Part shown: positions 1 through 60,735 of the stretch, one piece after another
How positions within the stretch are numbered: position 1 is the first letter of the stretch
Layout: each line of letters starts with the position of its first letter
NCBI GenBank assembly: GCA_965207075.1
Contig: CBDBLO010000002.1
Location: 1,472,001 to 1,536,000 of the forward strand
Direction of reading: 5' to 3'
Length of the DNA stretch: 64,000 bases
Source of the DNA: Nitrosopumilus sp.
GTDB taxonomy: Archaea; Thermoproteota; Nitrososphaeria; Nitrososphaerales; Nitrosopumilaceae
Made by a program: the position numbers and the translations under genes
Notes under the pieces: generated by a model
Databases searched by the model: none
What the model saw: the letters and a program-made list of their open reading frames with translations, nothing else
Told to the model about the DNA's origin: nothing

Positions 1-296
1 TCCTTTTCCACGATATCGCGGTGTATGGTAACTCCCTGAGCCCTCAGCTCCTCGACGGCGGACTTTACGTCCCCCACGATAAAGCCTATCGTGATGCCGT
101 TCTCTATGGAACTGCCGATGTGCGCGGCCGTAAGCGACGCCGGATGGAGGCTCAGGAGGGCCCCGGAAGCGCCCAGATCGACCCACGCCCTCCTCTGGTT
201 CTTTATGGGCAGTCCGATAGTCTCGTGGTAGAACTCTAGCGACTTGTCAAGATCCTTCACTGCGAGTATGACGTTGCCCACGTGCTTTATGTTCAC
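1..296 (-). CDS. VOC/glyoxalase-bleomycin resistance family protein (runs off window edge)
   Basis: Manual translation from GTG at 296: MNIKHVGNVILAVKDLDKSLEFYHETIGL...ITIGFIVGDVKSAVEELRAQGV, typical VOC pattern; absent from ORF track because it is partial. Confidence 0.85.
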   Translation of the reverse strand, partial: MNIKHVGNVILAVKDLDKSLEFYHETIGLPIKNQRRAWVDLGASGALLSLHPASLTAAHIGSSIENGITIGFIVGDVKSAVEELRAQGVTIHRDIVEK

Positions 297-338
297 GGAT
301 AGGGTGCGGAGCGGCGCCTTAAATCCATTTTCATTGCA

Positions 339-905
339 GGAACTGCTTCCAGTCCGTGATATTAGCTGGGCATGCCGTAATCGGCAGCCCGGCCAAACAC
401 CACGCCTGTACTCTGACGTTCTTTCTCCATTCCGCTGCGGGAAAGGGAACGCGCCGGCACTTGGCTCTCGTGCCCCCTCGTGCGGTGCCTGAGGCCGCCG
501 CCGAACCTCGCTGCCAGTTTGTGCGCGGTGCATGCGTCTTGGATGCCCGCACGCTGTATCCACACGGGAGCGGCGCGCATCCACTCCTGTTCCCGGCGCA
601 CGGCCGTCAGCTCCTTGTACAGCCCGTACTCGCTCACGGCATCGCCCGACATGATCCTCCCGACGGACCAGTTGTACGCGTGGCGCCGGGCAACGCGGTA
701 CGAGTCGATGAGGCGCACCTGGTCGGCCGCCAGCGATATGGCGACCCGGTACTTGCGGTATGCATGCAACGCGTAACACGCAAGGTGATCATGTCATTAT
801 GCCTTGTTTCTAACGTGACAGGCGCGCCGCCGTGTGGCTGCCGGCTGCATCCCGTCCGTTGGCCGGAGCATCAGTCCGGACATATCACTGATTGGAAGCG
901 GAACC
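339..905. mobile_element. Non-autonomous TIR element (567 bp) carrying a tnpB-like fragment
   Basis: Imperfect 24-bp TIRs GGAACTGCTTCCAGTCCGTGATAT (339-362) and reverse complement of 882-905 GGTTCCGCTTCCAATCAGTGATAT (19/24); exact 8-bp flanking duplication TCATTGCA at 331-338 and 906-913. Confidence 0.85.
362..769 (-). pseudogene. Truncated TnpB (IS200/IS605 OrfB)-like protein, N-terminal region only
   Basis: YR...Q..LI....R.AYNW...S.Y.L.KELT..R.E.EW......Q....D...A pattern matches the TnpB N-terminus; no RuvC or zinc finger; stop codon at the inner edge of the TIR. Confidence 0.65.
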
Positions 906-1124
906 TCATTGCACCTCGACCATCGTCTCGGTGCGCTCCACCCCGCCAATCGTCTGTATCTGGTATGCCACGTCCTTGAGGTGCGCCAGCTCGTCCACCT
1001 CGATCATGGCCACGGCGTCAAACTGCCCGCTTGTGGGAAAAGAGTCAGACACGGACTTGATCTTTCTGAGCCTGGCCGCGATAAGCTTTTTGGGGGATTT
1101 GACAAGTATGATCGCCCTTACCAT
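906..1124 (-). CDS. Lrp/AsnC ligand-binding domain protein
   Basis: 72 aa; TSGQFDAVA...IGGVERTET RAM-domain pattern, no HTH. Confidence 0.85.
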   Translation of the reverse strand: MVRAIILVKSPKKLIAARLRKIKSVSDSFPTSGQFDAVAMIEVDELAHLKDVAYQIQTIGGVERTETMVEVQ

Positions 1125-40714: not shown

Positions 40715-41950
40715 ATGTCTGCATTGTCATTAATGAAGAATAATGTTAATAAGAAAAAAAGCATCAACAAAGACGACAATCCAGTATTCAGGTTTCATGT
40801 CAGCCCCAAGGTGGATATCGCGCTCCGCAACAAGGACATGCCGCCATTCATTCCAGACGCTCTGCCGCCTGACATAACCTTCGACAGCAACCTATCCACA
40901 CTGCTTGAGAGTGCATCAAGATTAGTTGGAGAATTGAACGGCATCGGTAGTTCGATGGAAAATCCACGCATCCTGATCGGACGATACGTGAGGCACGAGG
41001 CAGTCGTAAGTTCCAGAATCGAGGGGACACTAGCATCCATAGAAGATTTGAACACGTATGAGATACTTGGAGGTTTCCAGAAGACAGATGCAGATCGCCT
41101 AAGGATAAAGGAGGTGTTCAACTACGAAAAGGCGCTCAAATGGGCCTTGAAACAGATCAGAGGCGGCGGCCAGTCCGTTGATCTGAGTATTATTCTGAAT
41201 GCCCACAAAATTCTAATGGACGGAGTGCGAGGACAGGAGTCCAGTCCCGGAAAAATCCGCGACCAGCAGAATGTCATTATAGAAAGAAGATCATTCAGCG
41301 CCACGGTCACATACGTCCCGCCCCCACCAAAAAAACTGCGAAAACTACTCCGAAACCTAGAAGCATTCTGCAAGAACGGGCACGATAACATTCCAGTCCT
41401 GATACAATGCGCAATGATCCACTACCAGTTCGAGGCCATACACCCCTTTGAGGATGGGAATGGCAGGATAGGAAGGTTGTTGATATTGATGATGTTGTGT
41501 CAGAGAGGATTTCTGAAAGAGCCGCTGCTTTACATGAGCGCCTTCTTCGAACGGCACAAGACAGAGTATTACCGATATCTCATGGAGGTAAGCAGCAAGG
41601 ACAAGTGGAACCAGTGGATATGGTTCTTTTTACAGGCCTTTGTAGAGCAGGCGGGGGAGGCCATAGAGAGCACCAGAAGGCTGTCGGCACTACAGCGACA
41701 ATATCGCCATACCCTGCAGAACATGAATGCGGGGGGCAATGTCATCGCTTTGATGGAGTCTTTGTTTGAAAATCCCTTCGCCACCATACCGTCAGCCCAA
41801 AAGCGGCTTGGCGTGTCATACCCGACTGCTAAGAGAACCGTTTCCACACTAGTAGACGCCGGCATGCTGACTCAGATCAATGCCAGATACAAAAGCAGGA
41901 TCTTCGCGGCCCTTGAGATTCATGATGCGTTACGTGACAGCACATTTTAG
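40715..41950 (+). CDS. Fic family protein with N-terminal inhibitory helix and C-terminal wHTH
   Basis: Canonical HPFEDGNGRIGR motif; SSRIEG matches (S/T)xxxE(G/N); visibly lower GC than core genes. Confidence 0.93.
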   Translation: MSALSLMKNNVNKKKSINKDDNPVFRFHVSPKVDIALRNKDMPPFIPDALPPDITFDSNLSTLLESASRLVGELNGIGSSMENPRILIGRYVRHEAVVSSRIEGTLASIEDLNTYEILGGFQKTDADRLRIKEVFNYEKALKWALKQIRGGGQSVDLSIILNAHKILMDGVRGQESSPGKIRDQQNVIIERRSFSATVTYVPPPPKKLRKLLRNLEAFCKNGHDNIPVLIQCAMIHYQFEAIHPFEDGNGRIGRLLILMMLCQRGFLKEPLLYMSAFFERHKTEYYRYLMEVSSKDKWNQWIWFFLQAFVEQAGEAIESTRRLSALQRQYRHTLQNMNAGGNVIALMESLFENPFATIPSAQKRLGVSYPTAKRTVSTLVDAGMLTQINARYKSRIFAALEIHDALRDSTF

Positions 41951-41953
41951 ACA

Positions 41954-42038
41954 GGCACTGCTTCCAATTCGTGATATAGGCACGACTGACGGGGTGGGAT
42001 CGATAGGATTCGCTGTATCACGAATTGGAAGCAGTGCT
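41954..42038. repeat. MITE copy 1 (85 bp)
   Basis: Perfect 22-bp inverted repeat GCACTGCTTCCAATTCGTGATA (41955-41976 / 42016-42037) around a 39-bp core shared with copies 2 and 3. Confidence 0.9.
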
Positions 42039-42045
42039 TAAGATA

Positions 42046-43531
42046 AATTCTGTTTCCTAATTCCGCCGTGGGCATCCGCCCCTGCGGCTTTGAGGCAGGC
42101 ATGCGTTAATTTGTTCAATAAAATTTGACAAAACGGCCAAAGGGCGCTCATGCAGGCGTTGAAATGCTTATGGCGAAAGTCAGACACGATGTATCCCACA
42201 TCTGCGTGCCCAGACAGACGCCAACGCCTGTTCGCGGCGTCGGCATTTAACCATGACTCGATCCCCCCTCCGGGCGCCTGCCGGGGCGGCGCGGCGCGGC
42301 CAGCCCGGGGGAATTCGGCGTACTGGAGGGGGCGGAGCCGCCCATGAGCCGGACGCGGGGCGCCGCAGCGGCGGGAACGGACAACGAAAAGTACGTCAGG
42401 CGCGGCGCGGACCTGTTCATAGAGTATGATCCAGGGTGGGAGGATGACGTGGGGCGCGCAAACGAGGGCAAGGTCGGCGCCCCGTACCGGTACGCGGAGA
42501 CGCTCATCATGCTGGCCGCCGCCTTCAGGGGCGCGCTGGGGATCCGGTACAGACAGCTCGAGGGGATGGTCGGGAAGATGGTAGGCGGATCCAACACGCC
42601 CGCATACAGCCAGCTGTACAAGCGGATCAACAGGCTTGACGCGGACATCCGCCGGAACCCGGACGGGATGGTGACGGTGTCGGACAGGAAGGGGTCGCGG
42701 ATGCTGGCGCTCGACGCAAGCGGGCTCAAGCAGCACAACAGGGGCGAGTGGATGAGGGCCAAGTGGAGGGTTAGGCGGGGCTTTGTAAAGATGCACGTGC
42801 TGGTCGACACGGAGACCATGAAGATACTCGCGCTGGAGGTCACGGACGATGCCGTGGGGGACTCGACCATGTTCGAGTCGCTGCTCGGACAGGTAGTGGA
42901 CGCGGGCGGCGCGCGGCACACGGAGCCGCCCGCCGCGCCACGTTCCGGCGGCGGCCCGAGATACGAAAACCTTCTCGCGTCCGGCATCCCCCCGCTCGCG
43001 TCATTCTTCCCGGGCGCCCCCCGGAACCGGGCCGCGCCCGACCTCCTGCTTGGCGACGCCGCGTACGGATCAAGGAAGAACGTGGCCGCGTGCGCGCGGG
43101 CAGGGGTGACCCCTGGCATTGCACACACCATCAACGTGACGGCGCGTGGCAGGGGATCCGGCGACGCGTGGGGCATATCCGTAAGGGACCAGATGGGCGG
43201 AAGCCCCGACGCGACGCGCCTGGACCTGATGGGCAGGGAGGAGAAGAGGGAGAACCAGGCGTACTGGAAGGCCCGCATAGGCTACGGCCACCGCTGGATC
43301 GCGGAGGCCGTGTTTTCGGTATTCAAGCGCCTGTTCGGCGAGCACCTGATGGCCCTCAAGTGGGAGAACATCGTGCAGGAGATAAGGCTCAAGGTGATCC
43401 AGTACAACAAGTGGAGGGATGAGTCGATAGCGCGCGAGGCGGGAGGCGGGACTTTCTGATGGTGTGACGACCATGTCGTCGTCCGATAGGAATCCAACAG
43501 GCACCCAGACGGCGAATTAGGAAACAGAATT
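42046..43531 (+). mobile_element. IS5-family (IS903-like) insertion sequence (1486 bp)
   Basis: Perfect 18-bp TIR AATTCTGTTTCCTAATTC; 8-bp duplication TTAAGATA at 42038-42045 and 43532-43539. Confidence 0.92.
42344..43459 (+). CDS. IS5-family transposase
   Basis: YRQLEG, LDASGLK...GEW...KMHVLVD, GDAAYGS and Y-GH-R-WIA-E-AVFSVF-K (YREK) motifs. Confidence 0.93.
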   Translation: MSRTRGAAAAGTDNEKYVRRGADLFIEYDPGWEDDVGRANEGKVGAPYRYAETLIMLAAAFRGALGIRYRQLEGMVGKMVGGSNTPAYSQLYKRINRLDADIRRNPDGMVTVSDRKGSRMLALDASGLKQHNRGEWMRAKWRVRRGFVKMHVLVDTETMKILALEVTDDAVGDSTMFESLLGQVVDAGGARHTEPPAAPRSGGGPRYENLLASGIPPLASFFPGAPRNRAAPDLLLGDAAYGSRKNVAACARAGVTPGIAHTINVTARGRGSGDAWGISVRDQMGGSPDATRLDLMGREEKRENQAYWKARIGYGHRWIAEAVFSVFKRLFGEHLMALKWENIVQEIRLKVIQYNKWRDESIAREAGGGTF

Positions 43532-43540
43532 TTAAGATAA

Positions 43541-43631
43541 TGAGATTTTTATACTATGGGGACGTACTCCATATGCGGTTCCGCATTGCAATGCATGCTA
43601 CGGGAAGCTTCGGTGAACCCAGGAATCGCAT
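43541..43631 (-). ncRNA. Candidate structured RNA directly downstream of the native DUF3800 stop
   Basis: AUGCGAUUCC/GGAACCGCAU outer stem (9/10 pairs) enclosing GGG..CCC and GCAU..AUGC hairpins, then a UAUGG/CCAUA hairpin; folded by eye only. Confidence 0.45.
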
Positions 43632-43710
43632 TATAGTTCCACTTTGCCGGTGGAGTGGACCCCCTGTTTTGGTACCATTTCTTGCTCCAAAATCCGAATG
43701 ATTCCTGCCC

Positions 43711-44544
43711 TCATTTATTCGTCATCTCCCACAGTTCGACAAACTCTGCCGGTGTCATGTACCCGATAGAGGAGTGTATCCGCTCTTTGTTGTAGTCGGC
43801 AATGGCTTCTGCAATGATCTTCTCTGCCTCCTGGTAATTGGCAAACTCATGCGGCCAGATGTACTCCTTTTTGAGGGTCTTGTGGAACGACTCGACGTGC
43901 CCGTTCTGCTCCGGTGTGTTCTTCCAGATGAACTCGTGCTTGCCGATGCCCAGGGCCCGGACCGCGCGCCTGAAGTCTCGGCTCGCGTACTGGTTGCCGT
44001 TGTCAGTGCGCAGCCGCAGCCTGGAGCAGTCGGGCCTTTCCGCGGCGACCGCGTTTGTGATCGAGTCGATTGCCACGTCCCTCGTGGCATGGACGTCAAA
44101 CGCGTACGCGATCCACTTGCGCGTAAAGCAGTCTATCACGTTGAAACAGTAGCACCAGCCGTCAATGCCGCACCAGACGTACGTGATGTCAGTCTCCCAC
44201 AGCCGGTTCGGGGCCTCTGGCTTGAAGAGCCTGCGGCCTGCCCGGATGATGTCGTTTTTCGTCTTTTGCGGCTGGATGTAGCCTATCCTGCGGTATATCC
44301 GCTGCACTTTCTTGCGGTTTGTGGACACGCCGGTCTCGCGGGCCACCTGGGCCGCCATTCTTCTGGTTCCATACGTGGGACGCCTGGCCGCAATGCGCCT
44401 GACCACCCGGACGGCGTCCGCGTCCACCGGGACGTTCCTTGGACGCGCAGTGTAATACCATGCCTGCTTGGACATGCCGCAGTATCCCAGCGCCCTGTTG
44501 AGGCTCATATATTTCGCTGCCTTGGTGACTGCCTCCATCCTCAT
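43711..44544 (-). CDS. IS3 OrfB (integrase-like DDE domain)
   Basis: YGTRR, WETDITY, TDNGNQY, NGHVESFHKTLKKE and YNKERIHSSIGY motifs. Confidence 0.95.
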   Translation of the reverse strand: MRMEAVTKAAKYMSLNRALGYCGMSKQAWYYTARPRNVPVDADAVRVVRRIAARRPTYGTRRMAAQVARETGVSTNRKKVQRIYRRIGYIQPQKTKNDIIRAGRRLFKPEAPNRLWETDITYVWCGIDGWCYCFNVIDCFTRKWIAYAFDVHATRDVAIDSITNAVAAERPDCSRLRLRTDNGNQYASRDFRRAVRALGIGKHEFIWKNTPEQNGHVESFHKTLKKEYIWPHEFANYQEAEKIIAEAIADYNKERIHSSIGYMTPAEFVELWEMTNK

Positions 44545-44822
44545 CTTTTTGCCCCCTCCAAAGTTTTTTTTAAAACGTCGTTGGCTATGGTGATCTCTGC
44601 GATTATGCGCTTGAGGTGTTCAATCTCCCGGACGTGGCTCTTGTCAACGTCCCCGTGGCTGGCAAGCGCCTGCTTGCCACCCTGCAGGAACTTGTCCTTC
44701 CAGTCCTGGAAGGTCGCAGGGGAGACATTGTGCTTGCGGCACAGCTCGGCGGCAGATATGCGGGTGGTAAAAAACTCCACCACCGCGTCGGCCTTGTCTT
44801 GCGGGCTGCGTCTCTTGCTCAT
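44541..44822 (-). CDS. IS3 OrfA (HTH)
   Basis: AELCRKHNVSPATFQDWK HTH plus coiled coil; ends after an A8 run and overlaps OrfB in the -1 frame. Confidence 0.9.
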   Translation of the reverse strand: MSKRRSPQDKADAVVEFFTTRISAAELCRKHNVSPATFQDWKDKFLQGGKQALASHGDVDKSHVREIEHLKRIIAEITIANDVLKKTLEGAKR

Positions 44823-45625
44823 GCCCCTGCTGCCGCCTCCTGCACCCTTAAGCATTCGGTTTTGATCGGTCTCACTTTAGCGGGGTCCAGCCCACCGGTA
44901 CGAAACTTCTCTCCATGCAGATTGAAGTATTTGTGCATTATCAACTTATAATATGAAGAGTATTGGCCGCTCATCCTGTAGGTATATGGAAGGTACGCAA
45001 AAAAGTCTGCAAGGTTTAGGATCGGTTGCTGCGTGGGGTCTCCGTTTTGCACGCGTGGATTGATTCTGGTTAAGTCCGTTGGCTTTGGAAAGTTACTGTG
45101 CTTTTGCAATCGCCGGATTGCTTGCTTGATTCTTCTTTCCATCTTTGCGTTGAGCCTTTCGTATATCACGGTGCCGTATGAATCGCGCTCCTCAAGAAAA
45201 TACTGGAACCGTTCCTGCAACAGGTGCAGCGCATACGCCCTTGGGCTTACGGGTTCCGGATACTTGGAATGGGCTGCTAGGCCTATGGATGCCGAAATCA
45301 GCGTGCAATCCAGCCGGTTTATGATGTCAAAGACGTCCTTCTCGAGGCCCTCCCTGTCGTCGATAGGTATCTGGTCGTATGGAGGCTTGTTGTTCCGCAA
45401 CGGATAGTAGTGCAGTTTGAATTTTTCAGGCAGCGGATTCCCGTGAAAGCGGTAATAGAGCATGTAATCGTATTCATCTTCAAAACGTTGTACGGTAGAC
45501 TCGTCTACGATTATCCCTCCTAGCACAAAATACGGAGAGCTTCCAACTATAGGCTTTTTGTCGGCATCTAGGTAGTCGCCCTCATCGCCGCTTTCATCAA
45601 CATAGAGGTTATACGTCATACGCAT
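44819..45625 (-). CDS. DUF3800-like protein (RNase H-like fold); last codons replaced by IS3 sequence
   Basis: LYVDESGD, YFVLGGII and ILNLADFFAY motifs; removing IS3 restores ...FRTGKVEL* with TAA at 43631-43633. Confidence 0.82.
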   Translation of the reverse strand: MRMTYNLYVDESGDEGDYLDADKKPIVGSSPYFVLGGIIVDESTVQRFEDEYDYMLYYRFHGNPLPEKFKLHYYPLRNNKPPYDQIPIDDREGLEKDVFDIINRLDCTLISASIGLAAHSKYPEPVSPRAYALHLLQERFQYFLEERDSYGTVIYERLNAKMERRIKQAIRRLQKHSNFPKPTDLTRINPRVQNGDPTQQPILNLADFFAYLPYTYRMSGQYSSYYKLIMHKYFNLHGEKFRTGGLDPAKVRPIKTECLRVQEAAAGA

Positions 45626-45679
45626 CAGTCCTTTTCCGATCTAGGCGGGCCTCCCGTGCTTAAAGCACTTTACAACCGG

Positions 45680-45763
45680 GGTATTGTTTCCAATCATGAC
45701 ATAAGCACGACTGATGTGGCGGGATCGATGGGATTCGCGGTATCACGAATTGGAAGCAGGGCC
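45680..45763. repeat. MITE copy 2 (84 bp)
   Basis: GGTATTGTTTCCAATCATGACATAAGCACGACTGATGTGGCGGGATCGATGGGATTCGCGGTATCACGAATTGGAAGCAGGGCC. Confidence 0.9.
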
Positions 45764-45771
45764 TTTAGACA

Positions 45772-45856
45772 GGTACCGTTTCCAATTCATGACATAGGCA
45801 CGACTGATGTGGCGGGATCGATGGGATTCGTTACATCACGAATTGGAAGCAGTGCC
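45772..45856. repeat. MITE copy 3 (85 bp)
   Basis: GGTACCGTTTCCAATTCATGACATAGGCACGACTGATGTGGCGGGATCGATGGGATTCGTTACATCACGAATTGGAAGCAGTGCC; 8 bp from copy 2. Confidence 0.9.
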
Positions 45857-58906: not shown

Positions 58907-59112
58907 CGCCGTCGTATCAGTGGCCGATGCCAAGAGAGGCTGCAACCGGGCCTCAGGCTAGACACCGGCAGGGGTTGTGGCGGCAATGGAATATCATAGT
59001 CATCAACAATGACACCGCCATTGCCGCCGCCGTCGCCAGCAACGGCGCCAGCAGTAATGACAGCGGCAACTGCTAGCAGCAGAGGCGGCAGTCTTCAAGG
59101 CGGCAGGACAGC

Positions 59113-59526
59113 CTAAAACCCGCCAGGACCCTTTAGGAGCATGCTCTCGCACTCCTTGCAGACTTCCTCGTCGATGTCAGACTCCAGGTTGTGGTGAATC
59201 TCGCAGATCAGGAGGCTCGACTTGATGTAGTTGCACAGGCCGATGAACTTTGAGAGGCTCAGCGGCGTGTACGCCATGTCCGAGGCCAGGTTGTCACACA
59301 GATCGTCAATCATTGCGGCCACCTTGTCCTGCGAGAGCAGCTTGCCTATCAGGACGGGGTCGCCGCGCGTGCCCCGGATGTAGTTGCTGATTGCGGCCTG
59401 CGTGACGCCGAGCATTTTTGATATCTCGTCCTCGCGTATGTCATGATCCTCGGCCAGCTTTTTTGCAATGATTGCGCGCAGCGCAGGTATCAACGTCTTG
59501 GATTCTATCTCGGCCGGAAGCAGCAT
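59113..59526 (-). CDS. HTH transcriptional regulator
   Basis: LPAEIESKTLIPALRA, ISKMLGVTQAAISNY and CEIH...CKEC motifs. Confidence 0.88.
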   Translation of the reverse strand: MLLPAEIESKTLIPALRAIIAKKLAEDHDIREDEISKMLGVTQAAISNYIRGTRGDPVLIGKLLSQDKVAAMIDDLCDNLASDMAYTPLSLSKFIGLCNYIKSSLLICEIHHNLESDIDEEVCKECESMLLKGPGGF

Positions 59527-59646
59527 GAAAAAGTTTCTTGTCCCTAGACATTTATAGTTTGCAAGAAATCGCGCCCCCCGCGGAACCGGCGCCCGCGGCC
59601 TCCGGCCTAAAGCGCGGCGGTCCGCGCAAGTTATCTACTTAACCAG

Positions 59647-60735
59647 ATGAAAACAACACCGGACATGCTGCAGGCAGACGGCGAGGTAGGGGACGCAGTG
59701 GCCAGGGTCAGGGCCGCCCTCAAGTCCGCATGCGGCAGGCACGAGATCAGCCTGGTGGCGCTATCAGGAGGCCTCGATTCGAGCATAATAGCGTGGCACG
59801 CAAGGCAGGCCGGAAGCCCCAGGGGGGTTGCGATAATCGCAAGGGACTTTGTCTCGACGGATCTGGCATACTGCCAGATGGCCTCAAGGGAGCTTGACGT
59901 GCCGCTTGAGATGGTCAGCGCGGGGACAGACGAGATACTAGACGGCATAACCAGCACCGTCAAGATTCTCAGGAACTTCAACGACATAGAGATCAGAAAC
60001 AGCGTGGTTATGTATCTGGCCGCAAGGTGGGCGGCCGAGAACGGGTATCGCTCCATTGCCACCGGGGACGGCGCAGACGAGCTGTTTGCAGGCTACAGGT
60101 TCCTGACAGAGACGCCAGAGGACAGGCTTGCAGGCGAGCTTGAGAGGATCCGCGACACGATGCACTTTCCCTCCCACGACATATGCAGGTCGCTTGGCAT
60201 AACCGCCGTATCCCCGTTTTTAGACGGCGAGGTGGTGCAGCTTGCGCAGGACATGGAGGCCTCACTCAAGGTCAGGCGCGACCACCCGAGGGGCGCGGCT
60301 CAGGCGCCCGAGGGCGGAGAGGGGCGCGGCGCCGTGCGCCACGGCAAGTGGATACTCAGAAGGGCGTTTGAGGGCGTCCTGCCGGCCGGGATAGCGTGGA
60401 GGCCAAAGTCCGCAATGCAGGACGGCGCGGGTACGGTGGGGCTTACGGGACTGTTCGAGTCCATGATGCGCATCGACGAGGAATCGTACGTCAGAAAGGT
60501 GCTTGCCGCAAAAATGGAGGATGGCGTTACAATCAGGAGCCAAGAGTCAATGTACTATTACGAGATATTCAGGAGGGAGTTCGGGGTGCCGGCGGAGTTC
60601 CAGGCGGCCGAGGCAGGGGCAGGGTCGAAAGACGACGGCGGTGCGAACCGGCCCGGGAAGACATGCCCCTACTGCAGGTGCGCGATCGCACGCGGCGCCA
60701 GGTTCTGCAGGATGTGCGCCGCGTTTCCGGTCTAG
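59647..60735 (+). CDS. Asparagine synthase C-terminal-domain protein with zinc ribbon
   Basis: LSGGLDSS, TGDGADELFAGY, SPFLD and KWILR motifs; no glutaminase domain; CPYC...CRMC tail. Confidence 0.88.
   Translation: MKTTPDMLQADGEVGDAVARVRAALKSACGRHEISLVALSGGLDSSIIAWHARQAGSPRGVAIIARDFVSTDLAYCQMASRELDVPLEMVSAGTDEILDGITSTVKILRNFNDIEIRNSVVMYLAARWAAENGYRSIATGDGADELFAGYRFLTETPEDRLAGELERIRDTMHFPSHDICRSLGITAVSPFLDGEVVQLAQDMEASLKVRRDHPRGAAQAPEGGEGRGAVRHGKWILRRAFEGVLPAGIAWRPKSAMQDGAGTVGLTGLFESMMRIDEESYVRKVLAAKMEDGVTIRSQESMYYYEIFRREFGVPAEFQAAEAGAGSKDDGGANRPGKTCPYCRCAIARGARFCRMCAAFPV

What the first reader, a model, noticed from the sequence alone, without database searches (positions are those of the whole stretch)
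331..913. TIR-bounded, TSD-generating element that captured only the N-terminal lobe of a TnpB-like protein
Seen: 24-bp imperfect TIRs, an exact 8-bp duplication TCATTGCA, and one 135-aa ORF that stops at the TIR edge. Known: tnpB normally travels in IS200/IS605/IS607 elements, which lack TIRs and target duplications. Inference: a DDE-type non-autonomous element picked up a tnpB piece. It may be a deletion derivative of an undescribed TIR+TnpB transposon or a nuclease-less mini-TnpB.
Basis: partly seen in the sequence, partly recalled or inferred. Interest (0 to 1): 0.72.

Follow-up and report, generated by a model that had tools for sequence, protein, structure and literature searches.

The report
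Broken copy of TIR-bounded TnpB transposon
The 567-bp insert is a dead, internally deleted copy of a 1.5-kb mobile element that carries an RNA-guided nuclease gene (tnpB) but moves like a classic cut/copy DDE transposon, most likely borrowing an IS6-like transposase encoded elsewhere in the genome.

Summary
Window 339-905 is bounded by 24-nt imperfect inverted repeats and an exact 8-bp duplication (TCATTGCA), and a sister genome has the same locus empty with one TCATTGCA.

It did not capture a tnpB piece. It is an in-frame internal deletion (957 bp, between CGAGG microhomologies) of a 1,524-bp element. That element is present full-length in the same genome and encodes a 455-aa TnpB with an intact catalytic triad and zinc finger, plus a covarying omega-RNA-like structure. 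The window copy has lost the whole nuclease core and the 5' half of that RNA, so it is a fossil.

The family matters more than the fossil. At least five TnpB-only subfamilies in three sponge-type Nitrosopumilaceae genomes have their own GG-starting inverted repeats. Exact 8-bp duplications occur at 6 of 12 distinct sites, and 3 of 3 sites tested in a sister genome were empty. No copy encodes a transposase and no Y1 TnpA was found.

The ends match those of an IS6-like DDE transposon in the same genomes, so mobilisation in trans is the best model (about 0.6). An IS5-family IS that also makes 8-bp duplications is the main rival.

DDE-linked TnpBs with inverted ends were described in 2023. I found no report of an IS6-type link.

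The parts
331..338 (.). Target-site duplication, left copy (TCATTGCA)
   Evidence: 8/8 with 906-913. A single copy stands at the empty site in G041.
339..362 (.). Terminal inverted repeat at the tnpB-distal (3', RE) end of the element; starts GG with G at position 7
   Evidence: 100% identical over 40 nt to the same end of the full-length copy.
339..480 (-). Retained 3' 142 nt of the parent element: the 3' half of the omega-RNA-like scaffold plus the TIR. The 5' strands of helices 2 and 3 and all of helices 1, 4 and 5 are missing.
   Evidence: blastn to the full-length element positions 1-142, 97%. Structure and covariation come from alignment A2.
476..480 (.). Deletion junction: 5-nt microhomology (CGAGG in tnpB orientation) where 957 bp (319 codons) of the parent were lost
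   Evidence: The two blast segments overlap at window 476-480. The junction and both parental breakpoints are printed.
362..769 (-). 135-aa remnant ORF: TnpB residues about 2-109 fused in frame to residues 418-455. It has no RuvC motifs and no zinc finger.
   Evidence: ORF. (0 Pfam families at E<=1). (tblastn 88% and 89% identity to the two ends of the 455-aa TnpB).
770..881 (-). 5' untranslated/promoter-side region of the element between the left TIR and the tnpB start
   Evidence: Aligned to the full-length copies. Function was not tested.
882..905 (.). Terminal inverted repeat at the tnpB-proximal (5', LE) end
906..913 (.). Target-site duplication, right copy (TCATTGCA). It contains the stop codon of the AsnC-type gene 906-1124(-).

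Best explanation
Window 339-905 is a defective, non-autonomous copy of a 1.52-kb TnpB-only transposable element.

The parent element has three parts:
- 24-26-nt terminal inverted repeats that begin GG and have G at position 7.
- One gene for a 455-aa RNA-guided-nuclease-type TnpB.
- A structured omega-RNA-like region that overlaps the 3' end of tnpB and runs to the right repeat.

The element carries no transposase. It inserts the way a DDE transposon does, by staggered cuts 8 bp apart in the target, which leaves an 8-bp duplication (shown). The enzyme is supplied in trans. The most likely source is the IS6-like DDE transposase that sits in these genomes inside elements with the same type of ends and the same 8-bp duplication (inferred).

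In the window copy, slippage or microhomology-mediated repair between two CGAGG repeats removed 957 bp. That took out both RuvC halves, the zinc finger and the 5' half of the RNA scaffold. What is left are the two ends and a 135-aa in-frame remnant ORF with no predicted activity. It could in principle still be moved as a MITE-like element, but it does nothing by itself.

My confidence by step:
- Deletion derivative of a TIR/TSD TnpB element: 0.95.
- DDE-type transposition in trans: 0.85.
- IS6-like enzyme as the mobiliser: about 0.6.
- Remnant ORF non-functional: 0.85.
For: Parent copy:
- G000:C2:639558-641081 is 95-97% identical to both ends of the window element and has 957 more bases between them.
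- Its ORF (L013:1082-2449, minus strand) hits NCBIfam guided_TnpB at 130.3 bits against a cut-off of 100, and Pfam Cas12f1-like_TNB at 4.3e-19.
- In a 21-sequence clade alignment, D182, E277, D364 and C335/C338/C354/C357 are invariant.

RNA:
- 37 predicted pairs in 10 sequences. 17 pairs have compensatory changes and 96.7% of cells are paired.
- 0 of 500 shuffles reach that value, and slid controls give 38-50%.

Mobility by a TSD-making mechanism:
- Exact 8/8 duplications at 6 of 12 distinct insertion sites of the clade: A_del, B, D, L031, L123, L124.
- 6-7/8 at 2 sites (E, L122) and none at 4.
- Empty sites in G041 for 3 of 3 tested: A_del, B, D.

No own transposase:
- All bounded units are 1.39-1.55 kb with tnpB as the only long gene.
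- No Y1 TnpA was found (PF01797, 0 matches; genome 95% complete).

IS6-like partner:
- G000 has one DDE_Tnp_IS240 match, 45.6 bits against a cut-off of 27.
- IS6 is its best NCBIfam model at 2.9e-31.
- It lies in a 4,679-bp element with 26-nt perfect TIRs and an exact 8-bp TSD.
- TIRs of TnpB elements match that TIR at 15-16 of 19 (B, L124, L126) and 11-12 of 19 (A). Other IS ends match at 2-8, and 200,000 random 19-mers reach at most 13.
- In G042 the IS6-like gene's downstream TIR core is identical over 14 nt to the TIRs of that genome's TnpB element.

Literature (passages read):
- IS6 elements make 8-bp repeats (PMC7986276).
- Their TIRs carry GG at positions 1-2 and G at 7, and archaeal TIRs are longer (PMC6807381).
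Against: - The IS6-like protein scores below NCBIfam's IS6 cut-off (108.8 against 125). Harmer and Hall argue that archaeal 'IS6' elements may be a separate family.
- The A-subfamily TIR, the one in the window, is the least like the IS6-like transposon's TIR among the GG..G7 types (11-12 of 19). No transposase gene flanked by A-type TIRs was found in G000, in 40 relatives or in genome contigs.
- An IS5-family IS in the same genome also makes exact 8-bp duplications and has a similar TIR core.
- The D and E subfamilies have different TIRs with no G at position 7, matching at 7-10 of 19. They may use another enzyme.
- 4 of 12 sites show no duplication, including the full-length A copy.
- dN/dS on 88 codons is uninformative: 3-10 differences per pair, with ratios of 1 or more even between full-length copies.
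- Nothing was tested at the bench.
Confidence: 0.6

Rival explanations
1. Same element and same deletion, but the mobilising enzyme is the multi-copy IS5-family transposase (window 42344-43459 and four more copies), not the IS6-like one.
For: - The IS5-family IS (NF033579, 175.9 bits against a cut-off of 140) has 5 copies.
- It makes exact 8-bp duplications at both copies checked (TTAAGATA and TGATGCGC).
- By eye, its TIR core printed resembles the core of the MITE/A-type TIR if one base is skipped.
- The review PMC13565253 (passage read) says TnpBs have been found with IS5-group transposases (ISL2, IS1031).
Against: - Its four terminal bases are AATT, against GGnA in every A-, B- and C-type end. 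Terminal bases are where DDE enzymes cut (established knowledge).
- Ungapped identity of its ends to the IS6-like TIR is 8 and 2 of 19, whereas TnpB B, L124 and L126 ends reach 14-16.
- In G042 the 14-nt identical core is with the IS6-like gene's TIR.
Confidence: 0.15
2. The mobiliser is a transposase not present in these assemblies (lost, on an unassembled replicon, or from a co-resident organism or virus), or it is of a family not recognised here. The TIR likeness to the IS6-like element reflects only common descent of ends.
For: - No autonomous element with A-type TIRs was found in G000, in 40 relatives or in genome contigs.
- G000 is 95.4% complete.
- The D/E-type TIRs resemble none of the transposon ends examined.
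Against: - IS6-like genes co-occur with the TnpB clade in all 3 genomes tested: G000, G041, G042.
- Insertions are polymorphic between G000 and G041, so an active enzyme was available to these lineages.
Confidence: 0.15
3. One reading: a pre-existing TIR element (MITE) captured a fragment of tnpB; or the 135-aa product is a selected, nuclease-less mini-TnpB, for example an RNA- or DNA-binding regulator.
For: - The deletion is in frame (957 = 3 x 319) and the ORF is open from the original start to the original stop.
- TIR-only MITEs of the same class exist in the window.
Against: - The full-length element has the same TIRs and the same flanking architecture, so no capture is needed.
- An in-frame deletion happens by chance 1 time in 3.
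- Only one copy of the short form was found in G000 and none in G041.
- There is no Pfam hit.
- The RNA scaffold that a TnpB-like protein would bind is cut in half.
- There are 5-8 amino-acid changes in 88 codons against full-length copies, with dN/dS of 1.9-3.0 on very few sites.
Confidence: 0.04

Closest known systems
DDE-transposase-associated TnpB branches (DDE-1 to DDE-6) and solo TnpBs with the same ends (Altae-Tran et al. 2023, PMC10691335; passages read)
   Same: TnpB sits within symmetrical inverted terminal repeats rather than IS605-type asymmetric ends. The tnpB 3' end lies within 250 bp of the transposon end. Solo TnpB units are inferred to be moved in trans.
   Different: The paper's text names IS630 for DDE-6. 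A later review (PMC13565253) lists ISL2, IS630 and IS1031. Here the ends and the 8-bp duplication point to an IS6-like enzyme, and no copy of the clade has a transposase in cis. Whether this thaumarchaeal clade lies in one of the six branches could not be checked because the supplements are closed.
IS1341-group elements of the IS200/IS605 family (tnpB-only)
   Same: A single tnpB gene of about 1.4-1.5 kb, non-autonomous, with an omega-RNA-like structure at the 3' end.
   Different: IS200/IS605 elements have no TIRs and make no target duplication (PMC13565253). These elements have both. No Y1 TnpA was found in the genome.
IS6/IS26 family and its archaeal look-alikes (Varani et al. 2021, PMC7986276; Harmer and Hall 2019, PMC6807381; passages read)
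   Same: 8-bp target duplication. TIRs start GG with G at position 7, and archaeal TIRs are 18 nt or longer. A DDE_Tnp_IS240-type transposase with the same ends is present in the same genomes.
   Different: Classic IS6 elements are 0.7-0.9 kb with the transposase inside. ISfinder held 2 MITEs and one passenger-carrying member. Here the transposase is replaced by tnpB plus an RNA gene, and the transposase scores below NCBI's IS6 cut-off.
Fanzor-carrying eukaryotic DNA transposons (Bao and Jurka 2013, PMC3627910, search listing only; review PMC13565253, passages read)
   Same: A TnpB homologue rides as cargo in TIR/TSD transposons moved by DDE enzymes, often in non-autonomous copies.
   Different: Those are eukaryotic or viral, with other superfamilies (Mariner, hAT, MuDR and others) and different catalytic rearrangements. 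This one is archaeal.
MITEs / internally deleted non-autonomous IS derivatives
   Same: The window copy keeps both TIRs and the TSD, has lost the internal functions by deletion between short repeats, and depends on an enzyme in trans.
   Different: It still carries a 135-aa in-frame remnant and half of a structured RNA. It is single-copy, not amplified.

Membership tests
TnpB (RNA-guided endonuclease, OMEGA effector) | Profile match above the curated cut-off | tested here: met
   Full-length parent: NCBIfam NF040570 guided_TnpB 130.3 bits against 100; Pfam PF07282 68.8 bits against 26.3. The window ORF itself has 0 Pfam families. It is tied to TnpB only through 88-95% identity to the parent's two ends.
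TnpB (RNA-guided endonuclease, OMEGA effector) | RuvC D-E-D triad and C4 zinc finger present | tested here: not met
   For the window copy, the region holding D182, E277, D364 and C335/338/354/357 is deleted. For the parent and 20 clade members, all seven residues are invariant. Their assignment to the RuvC motifs is by motif context (GIDRG, EDLK, QADVNAA), not by structure.
TnpB (RNA-guided endonuclease, OMEGA effector) | Structured guide RNA (omega RNA) overlapping the 3' end of the gene and reaching the element end | tested here: met
   Parent family: 37 pairs, 17 with compensatory change, 0 of 500 shuffles. There is no Rfam match at E<=0.1. The window copy keeps only the 3' part. The guide and its processing were not tested.
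TnpB (RNA-guided endonuclease, OMEGA effector) | RNA-guided, TAM-dependent DNA cleavage | not testable with these tools
   Needs biochemistry. By eye, the bases 5' of the duplications at the 8/8 sites show no common motif.
IS200/IS605 family (IS1341 group) | No terminal inverted repeats and no target-site duplication; insertion 3' of a fixed 4-5-nt target | tested here: not met
   TIRs of 19-28 nt are present in every subfamily. Exact 8-bp duplications of unrelated sequence occur at 6 of 12 sites. The family definition is from PMC13565253.
IS200/IS605 family (IS1341 group) | Y1 (HUH) TnpA available in the genome | tested here: not met
   PF01797 gave 0 matches in G000 (95.4% complete). The control rang in 6 of 14 known genomes.
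IS6/IS26-type element (non-autonomous) | 8-bp direct target repeats | tested here: met
   The family feature is from PMC7986276.
IS6/IS26-type element (non-autonomous) | TIRs starting GG with G at position 7 | tested here: met
   Both ends of A_del, A_full, B, C2, L124 and L126 meet it. D and E have GG but not G7. The feature is from PMC6807381.
IS6/IS26-type element (non-autonomous) | Cognate IS6-family DDE transposase with matching ends | tested here: inconclusive
   Present in G000, G041 and G042, and above the Pfam cut-off in each. The G000 protein is below NCBIfam's IS6 cut-off (108.8 against 125); the other two were not scanned against NCBIfam. End identity is 15-16 of 19 for B, L124 and L126 but 11-12 of 19 for the A type. 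A 14-nt core is identical in G042. Binding and transposition were not tested.
IS6/IS26-type element (non-autonomous) | Copy-in (cointegrate) transposition | not testable with these tools
   One structure is compatible with it: two direct MITE copies flanking 3.8 kb, with one 8-bp duplication outside them (window 41946-45771). This is suggestive only.
DDE-associated TnpB branches of Altae-Tran 2023 | Phylogenetic placement in DDE-1..6 and a DDE gene in cis in some members | not testable with these tools
No member of this clade seen here has a transposase inside its TIRs.

The most novel reading that the evidence does not exclude
A whole clade of catalytically intact TnpB/omega-RNA modules in sponge-type ammonia-oxidising archaea has swapped its IS605-type ends for IS6-type ends. 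It now rides, without any transposase of its own, on a copy-in DDE transposase that never excises its element. If so, the accepted rationale for TnpB, re-cutting the empty donor site after excision ('restorative homing'), cannot apply. The insertion sites also share no obvious TAM. The nuclease would then have to earn its keep in another way, for example by driving the element into empty alleles, by resolving or provoking cointegrates, or by acting as an addiction module.
Probability: 0.3. Interest if true: 0.7.

Novelty: new variant of a known kind. Interest (0 to 1): 0.48.

Why it matters
The window element alone is an ordinary dead transposon copy. The family behind it is a clean natural case of a TnpB and its guide RNA carried between DDE-type inverted repeats. 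It has polymorphic insertions, empty sites and a candidate trans-acting transposase all in hand.

That makes two open questions testable:
- How modular is the junction between the omega-RNA's 3' end and the transposon end?
- What is a guide-RNA nuclease good for in a transposon that duplicates 8 bp of arbitrary target, and that, if it is truly IS6-like, does not excise?

It also adds a second kind of passenger-carrying, non-autonomous element to the IS6-like group. ISfinder recorded almost none of these (PMC7986276).

Tried and rejected
- IS1595-family partner: this was my first guess, from recalled end consensus and the 8-bp repeat. PF12762 gave 0 matches in G000, so I rejected it.
- rve-type IS carrying an internal exact 16-nt match to the A-type TIR at 3 places. 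It has its own unrelated TIRs and 14-nt duplications. I read the match as one chance event copied three times.
- Exact TIR pattern in 40 relatives and in genome contigs: nothing was found outside G000.
- Metagenome-contig scan with the clade alignment: the 80 loci kept were all 46% identity or less over short segments. No clade member turned up, so nothing was learnt about autonomous versions.
- Rfam scan of five family loci at E<=0.1: 0 matches.
- dN/dS on the remnant ORF: too few substitutions to say anything.
- MAFFT alignment of the short and long copies misplaced the deletion. I redid it by segments.
The IS5-versus-IS6 question therefore rests on ungapped counts, on reading by eye, and.
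- RNA evidence: contigs of one metatranscriptome library (X20) lie on L013 1028-1372, 1448-1918 and 2138-2388 at 95-99% identity. They cover the RNA region and cross the element end into the flank. The tool warns that DNA may be present in such libraries and that contigs show neither strand nor ends, so I do not count this as evidence of expression.
- Parts of that stretch without cover in X20, and the small word shares in the other runs listed, carry no weight.
- No structure prediction or complex prediction was run, because the sequence profiles already settled the family.

Full report
**1. The observation**

The sequence shows TCATTGCA at 331-338 and again at 906-913. Directly inside these lie inverted repeats at 339-362 and 882-905. 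The repeat finder reports 25-nt arms at 80% complementarity. The only long ORF inside is 362-769 on the minus strand, 135 aa. It has no Pfam hit at E<=1.

The flanking genes are a glyoxalase-family gene, whose start lies left of the insert, and a 72-aa AsnC-type ligand-binding-domain gene at 906-1124(-). The stop codon of the latter lies in the duplicated 8-mer.

**2. What it is derived from**

A search of the window's own genome (G000: 2.23 Mb, 2 contigs, 95.4% complete) found both halves of the element at one other place, G000:C2:639558-641081. There they are separated by about 950 extra bases.

That 1,524-bp copy has the same TIRs and one ORF of 455 aa. The ORF is a TnpB:
- NCBIfam guided_TnpB, 130.3 bits against a cut-off of 100.
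- Pfam Cas12f1-like TNB domain, 4.3e-19.
- OrfB_IS605 only weakly, at 3e-4, below its cut-off.

Segment-wise alignment places the deletion between two CGAGG repeats. It removes 957 bp, or 319 codons, so the remnant stays in frame. The window ORF is therefore TnpB residues about 2-109 joined to residues 418-455. Everything catalytic is gone.

The short copy is about as far from each of three full-length copies as those copies are from each other: 20-22 differences in 432 nt, against 15-24 between full-length copies. It is therefore not a fresh derivative of any surviving copy. dN/dS on 88 codons rests on 3-10 differences per pair and says nothing.

**3. It is a real insertion**

A closely related genome reached through a related locus (G041; public title 'MAG: Nitrosopumilus sp.') has the window's two flanks adjacent, sharing one TCATTGCA. 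45 nt on each side are identical.

**4. The family**

G000 holds six further full-length paralogues at 53-62% amino-acid identity, in four subfamilies that I call B, C, D and E.
- In the 5.8-billion-protein collection the clade is sharply bounded: 30 proteins at 48% identity or more, then a drop to 30% or less. The named members are all Nitrososphaerota/Nitrosopumilaceae.
- Among 40 relatives in the genome library, no genome other than G000 has a clade member. Two have only TnpBs at 28-33% identity.
- More members were found in G041 and in a third MAG, G042.

Every subfamily has its own terminal inverted repeats of 19-28 nt that start with GG. The 8 bases outside the repeats compare as follows:
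- Identical at 6 of 12 distinct sites: window copy, B, D, L031, L123, L124.
- 6-7 of 8 identical at two sites: E and L122.
- Unrelated at four sites: C1, C2, L129, and the site shared by the full-length A copy, L030 and L126.

G041 has empty sites, with the flanks overlapping by 8 nt, for B and D as well. That makes 3 empty sites of 3 tested. No unit contains a second gene, and G000 has no Y1 TnpA.

In a 21-sequence alignment the presumed RuvC residues D182, E277 and D364 and the four zinc-finger cysteines are invariant. The full-length genes therefore look like active nucleases kept by selection.

**5. The RNA**

The 3' ends of the paralogues are more alike in DNA than the proteins are. RNAalifold on 10 sequences from the five subfamilies gives seven helices with 37 pairs, 17 of them with compensatory double changes.

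On the counting tool, 96.7% of cells pair. 0 of 500 shuffles reach the observed values for pairing, double changes or covariation score. Sliding the partner by 1-3 columns drops pairing to 38-50%.

The structure ends about 70 nt before the element end. The remaining stretch is subfamily-specific and runs into the TIR. Rfam has no match.

I read this as the omega-RNA scaffold. Its guide would be the flank beyond the right TIR, beginning with the 8-bp duplication (inference from the known TnpB arrangement; PMC13565253). The window copy starts inside this structure, so helices 1, 4 and 5 and the 5' strands of helices 2 and 3 are missing.

**6. Who moves it**

TIRs plus a fixed-length duplication of arbitrary sequence are the signature of a DDE transposase (established knowledge; PMC6807381). 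The same class of ends also bounds things that have nothing to do with tnpB in G000:
- 84-bp MITEs, three of them in this window.
- Elements of 0.5-0.9 kb.
- A 2.2-kb cargo element with an exact 8-bp duplication.

One transposase gene sits between such ends. It is a 310-aa protein at G000:C2:1024436-1025368:
- Pfam DDE_Tnp_IS240 above its cut-off.
- IS6 as the best NCBIfam model at 2.9e-31, although below that model's cut-off.
- An N-terminal zinc-binding domain.

It lies in a 4,679-bp element with 26-nt perfect TIRs and the exact duplication GCTGATCA. That element also carries a 511-aa ORF that looks like a DNA methyltransferase fused to an HNH-type motif. This is my reading of the sequence and was not profiled.

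Over the first 19 nt, ends match this TIR as follows:
- TnpB-element ends B, L124 and L126: 14-16 positions.
- A-type ends: 11-12.
- C-type ends: 10-11 (one indel).
- D/E-type ends: 7-10.
- Ends of three unrelated IS: 2-8.
- 200,000 random genomic 19-mers: never more than 13.

G041 and G042 each have one IS6-like gene too. In G042 the TIR downstream of that 243-aa gene has a 14-nt core identical to the TIRs of that genome's TnpB element.

The literature passages I read say that IS6 elements make 8-bp repeats and have short conserved IRs (PMC7986276). They also say that these begin GG with G at position 7, and that the archaeal ones have longer TIRs and may deserve their own family (PMC6807381). 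The A, B and C types meet GG..G7. D and E do not.

**7. The rival enzyme**

An IS5-family IS has five copies in G000, one at window 42046-43531. Its transposase scores 175.9 bits on NF033579 against a cut-off of 140. It also makes exact 8-bp duplications at both copies checked. Its TIR core resembles the MITE/A-type core if one base is skipped (my reading). Its four terminal bases differ completely.

A scored gapped comparison was not completed. I therefore keep this as a live rival at about 0.15 and put the IS6-like enzyme at about 0.6.

**8. Comparison with what is known**

IS200/IS605 and IS607 elements lack TIRs and duplications (PMC13565253). The family is therefore not a member of either, although its cargo is a bona fide TnpB.

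Altae-Tran et al. 2023 (PMC10691335, passages read) already reported several relevant things:
- Six DDE-associated TnpB branches, all with inverted terminal repeats.
- tnpB ends within 250 bp of the transposon end.
- Solo TnpBs between ends nearly identical to those of transposase-bearing relatives, implying mobilisation in trans.

The text names IS630. The 2026 review adds ISL2 and IS1031. The concept is therefore known.

I did not find an IS6-type link, nor any mention of these archaea:
- 'TnpB' + 'IS6 family' gave 7 papers, all incidental by title and abstract.
- 'TnpB' + 'Nitrosopumilus' gave 0 papers.
- In the four-term search with Thaumarchaeota, Nitrososphaerota and Cenarchaeum, none of the 12 papers listed (of 295 holding two or more terms) contains TnpB.

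The supplements of the 2023 paper, which I could not open, may already contain this clade.

**9. Verdict**

It is a deletion derivative, not a capture event and not a mini-TnpB, and the window copy itself is a fossil.

The interest lies in the parent family: intact TnpB/omega-RNA modules between IS6-like ends, moved in trans, with 8-bp duplications of arbitrary sequence. By eye I see no shared motif 5' of the duplications at the 8/8 sites. If the mobiliser truly works like IS26 (copy-in, no excision; PMC6807381), the usual explanation for why transposons keep TnpB does not apply. That is the boldest reading the data allow, and I give it about 0.3.

Noticed in passing
window 41946-45856: Three 84-85-bp MITEs with the same TIR class lie at 41954-42038, 45680-45763 and 45772-45856. 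The first two are direct copies that enclose 3.8 kb and are flanked by an exact 8-bp duplication, TTTAGACA (41946-41953 and 45764-45771). The third MITE starts right after the second TTTAGACA. It looks like a compound or cointegrate-type structure.
   Followed up: partly
window 42046-43531: IS5-family IS, 1,486 bp, with a 371-aa transposase at 42344-43459 (NF033579 above its cut-off). It makes an exact 8-bp duplication, TTAAGATA. An identical copy lies at G000:C2:2134526-2136011 with TGATGCGC, and three copies at 88% identity lie elsewhere. Its TIR core resembles that of the MITEs next to it.
   Followed up: partly
window 43642-44895 and 44819-45625: An IS3-type IS (OrfA 104 aa plus a 277-aa rve integrase-core protein) has two near-identical copies elsewhere in G000. 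Next to it is a DUF3800 gene, and upstream at 40715-41950 is a Fic/DOC-family gene.
   Followed up: no
G000:C2:1024050-1028728 (partly in L038): A 4.7-kb IS6-like transposon with 26-nt perfect TIRs and the duplication GCTGATCA. It carries the transposase, a 511-aa methyltransferase-like ORF, and an internal extra TIR-like sequence of the A/MITE type at 1027669-1027692.
   Followed up: partly
G000:C2:2130836-2133062: A 2.2-kb element with MITE-type TIRs and the exact duplication TCCCGCCG. It carries several ORFs of 130-177 aa of unknown function, one with a CxxC...CxxC ribbon, and a second inward-facing TIR copy at 2131080.
   Followed up: no
L126 (G042) against L013 / L030: The site of the full-length A copy has the same flanking sequence in three genomes. 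In G042 it is occupied by a TnpB element only 57% identical in protein and with different TIRs. None of the three shows a duplication. A metagenome contig (run X12) has 154 other bases at this site instead. This could be site re-use or replacement, possibly by end-targeted recombination.
   Followed up: partly
G000:C2:19533-21082 and 58989-60430: The two C-type copies share CTAAAT(A/G) just outside the left TIR but have unrelated right flanks. The TnpB element L124 in another genome has CTAAATAG as its duplication. C1 also has about 108 extra bases between its left TIR and the rest. This is unexplained.
   Followed up: no
G000:C2:956985-957044: A solo 60-nt piece, 88% identical to the 3' half of the omega-RNA-like scaffold. 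It begins at almost the same position as the window copy's deletion junction and is followed by a degenerate element end. There is no tnpB nearby. A similar piece lies in G041 at 1751750-1751809. It is probably another fossil right end.
   Followed up: partly
G000:C2:24942-32933 and 2168234-2179734: The two E-type TnpB copies lie inside a multi-kb segmental duplication at 97.5% identity, so they count as one insertion event. Much of contig C1 (45.9 kb) is also repeated in C2.
   Followed up: no
G000:C2:462555-463686, 519677-520810, 2042492-2043624: An rve-type IS of 1.13 kb that makes 14-nt target duplications. It holds an internal exact 16-nt match to the A-type TIR, which I judged to be chance.
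   Followed up: yes
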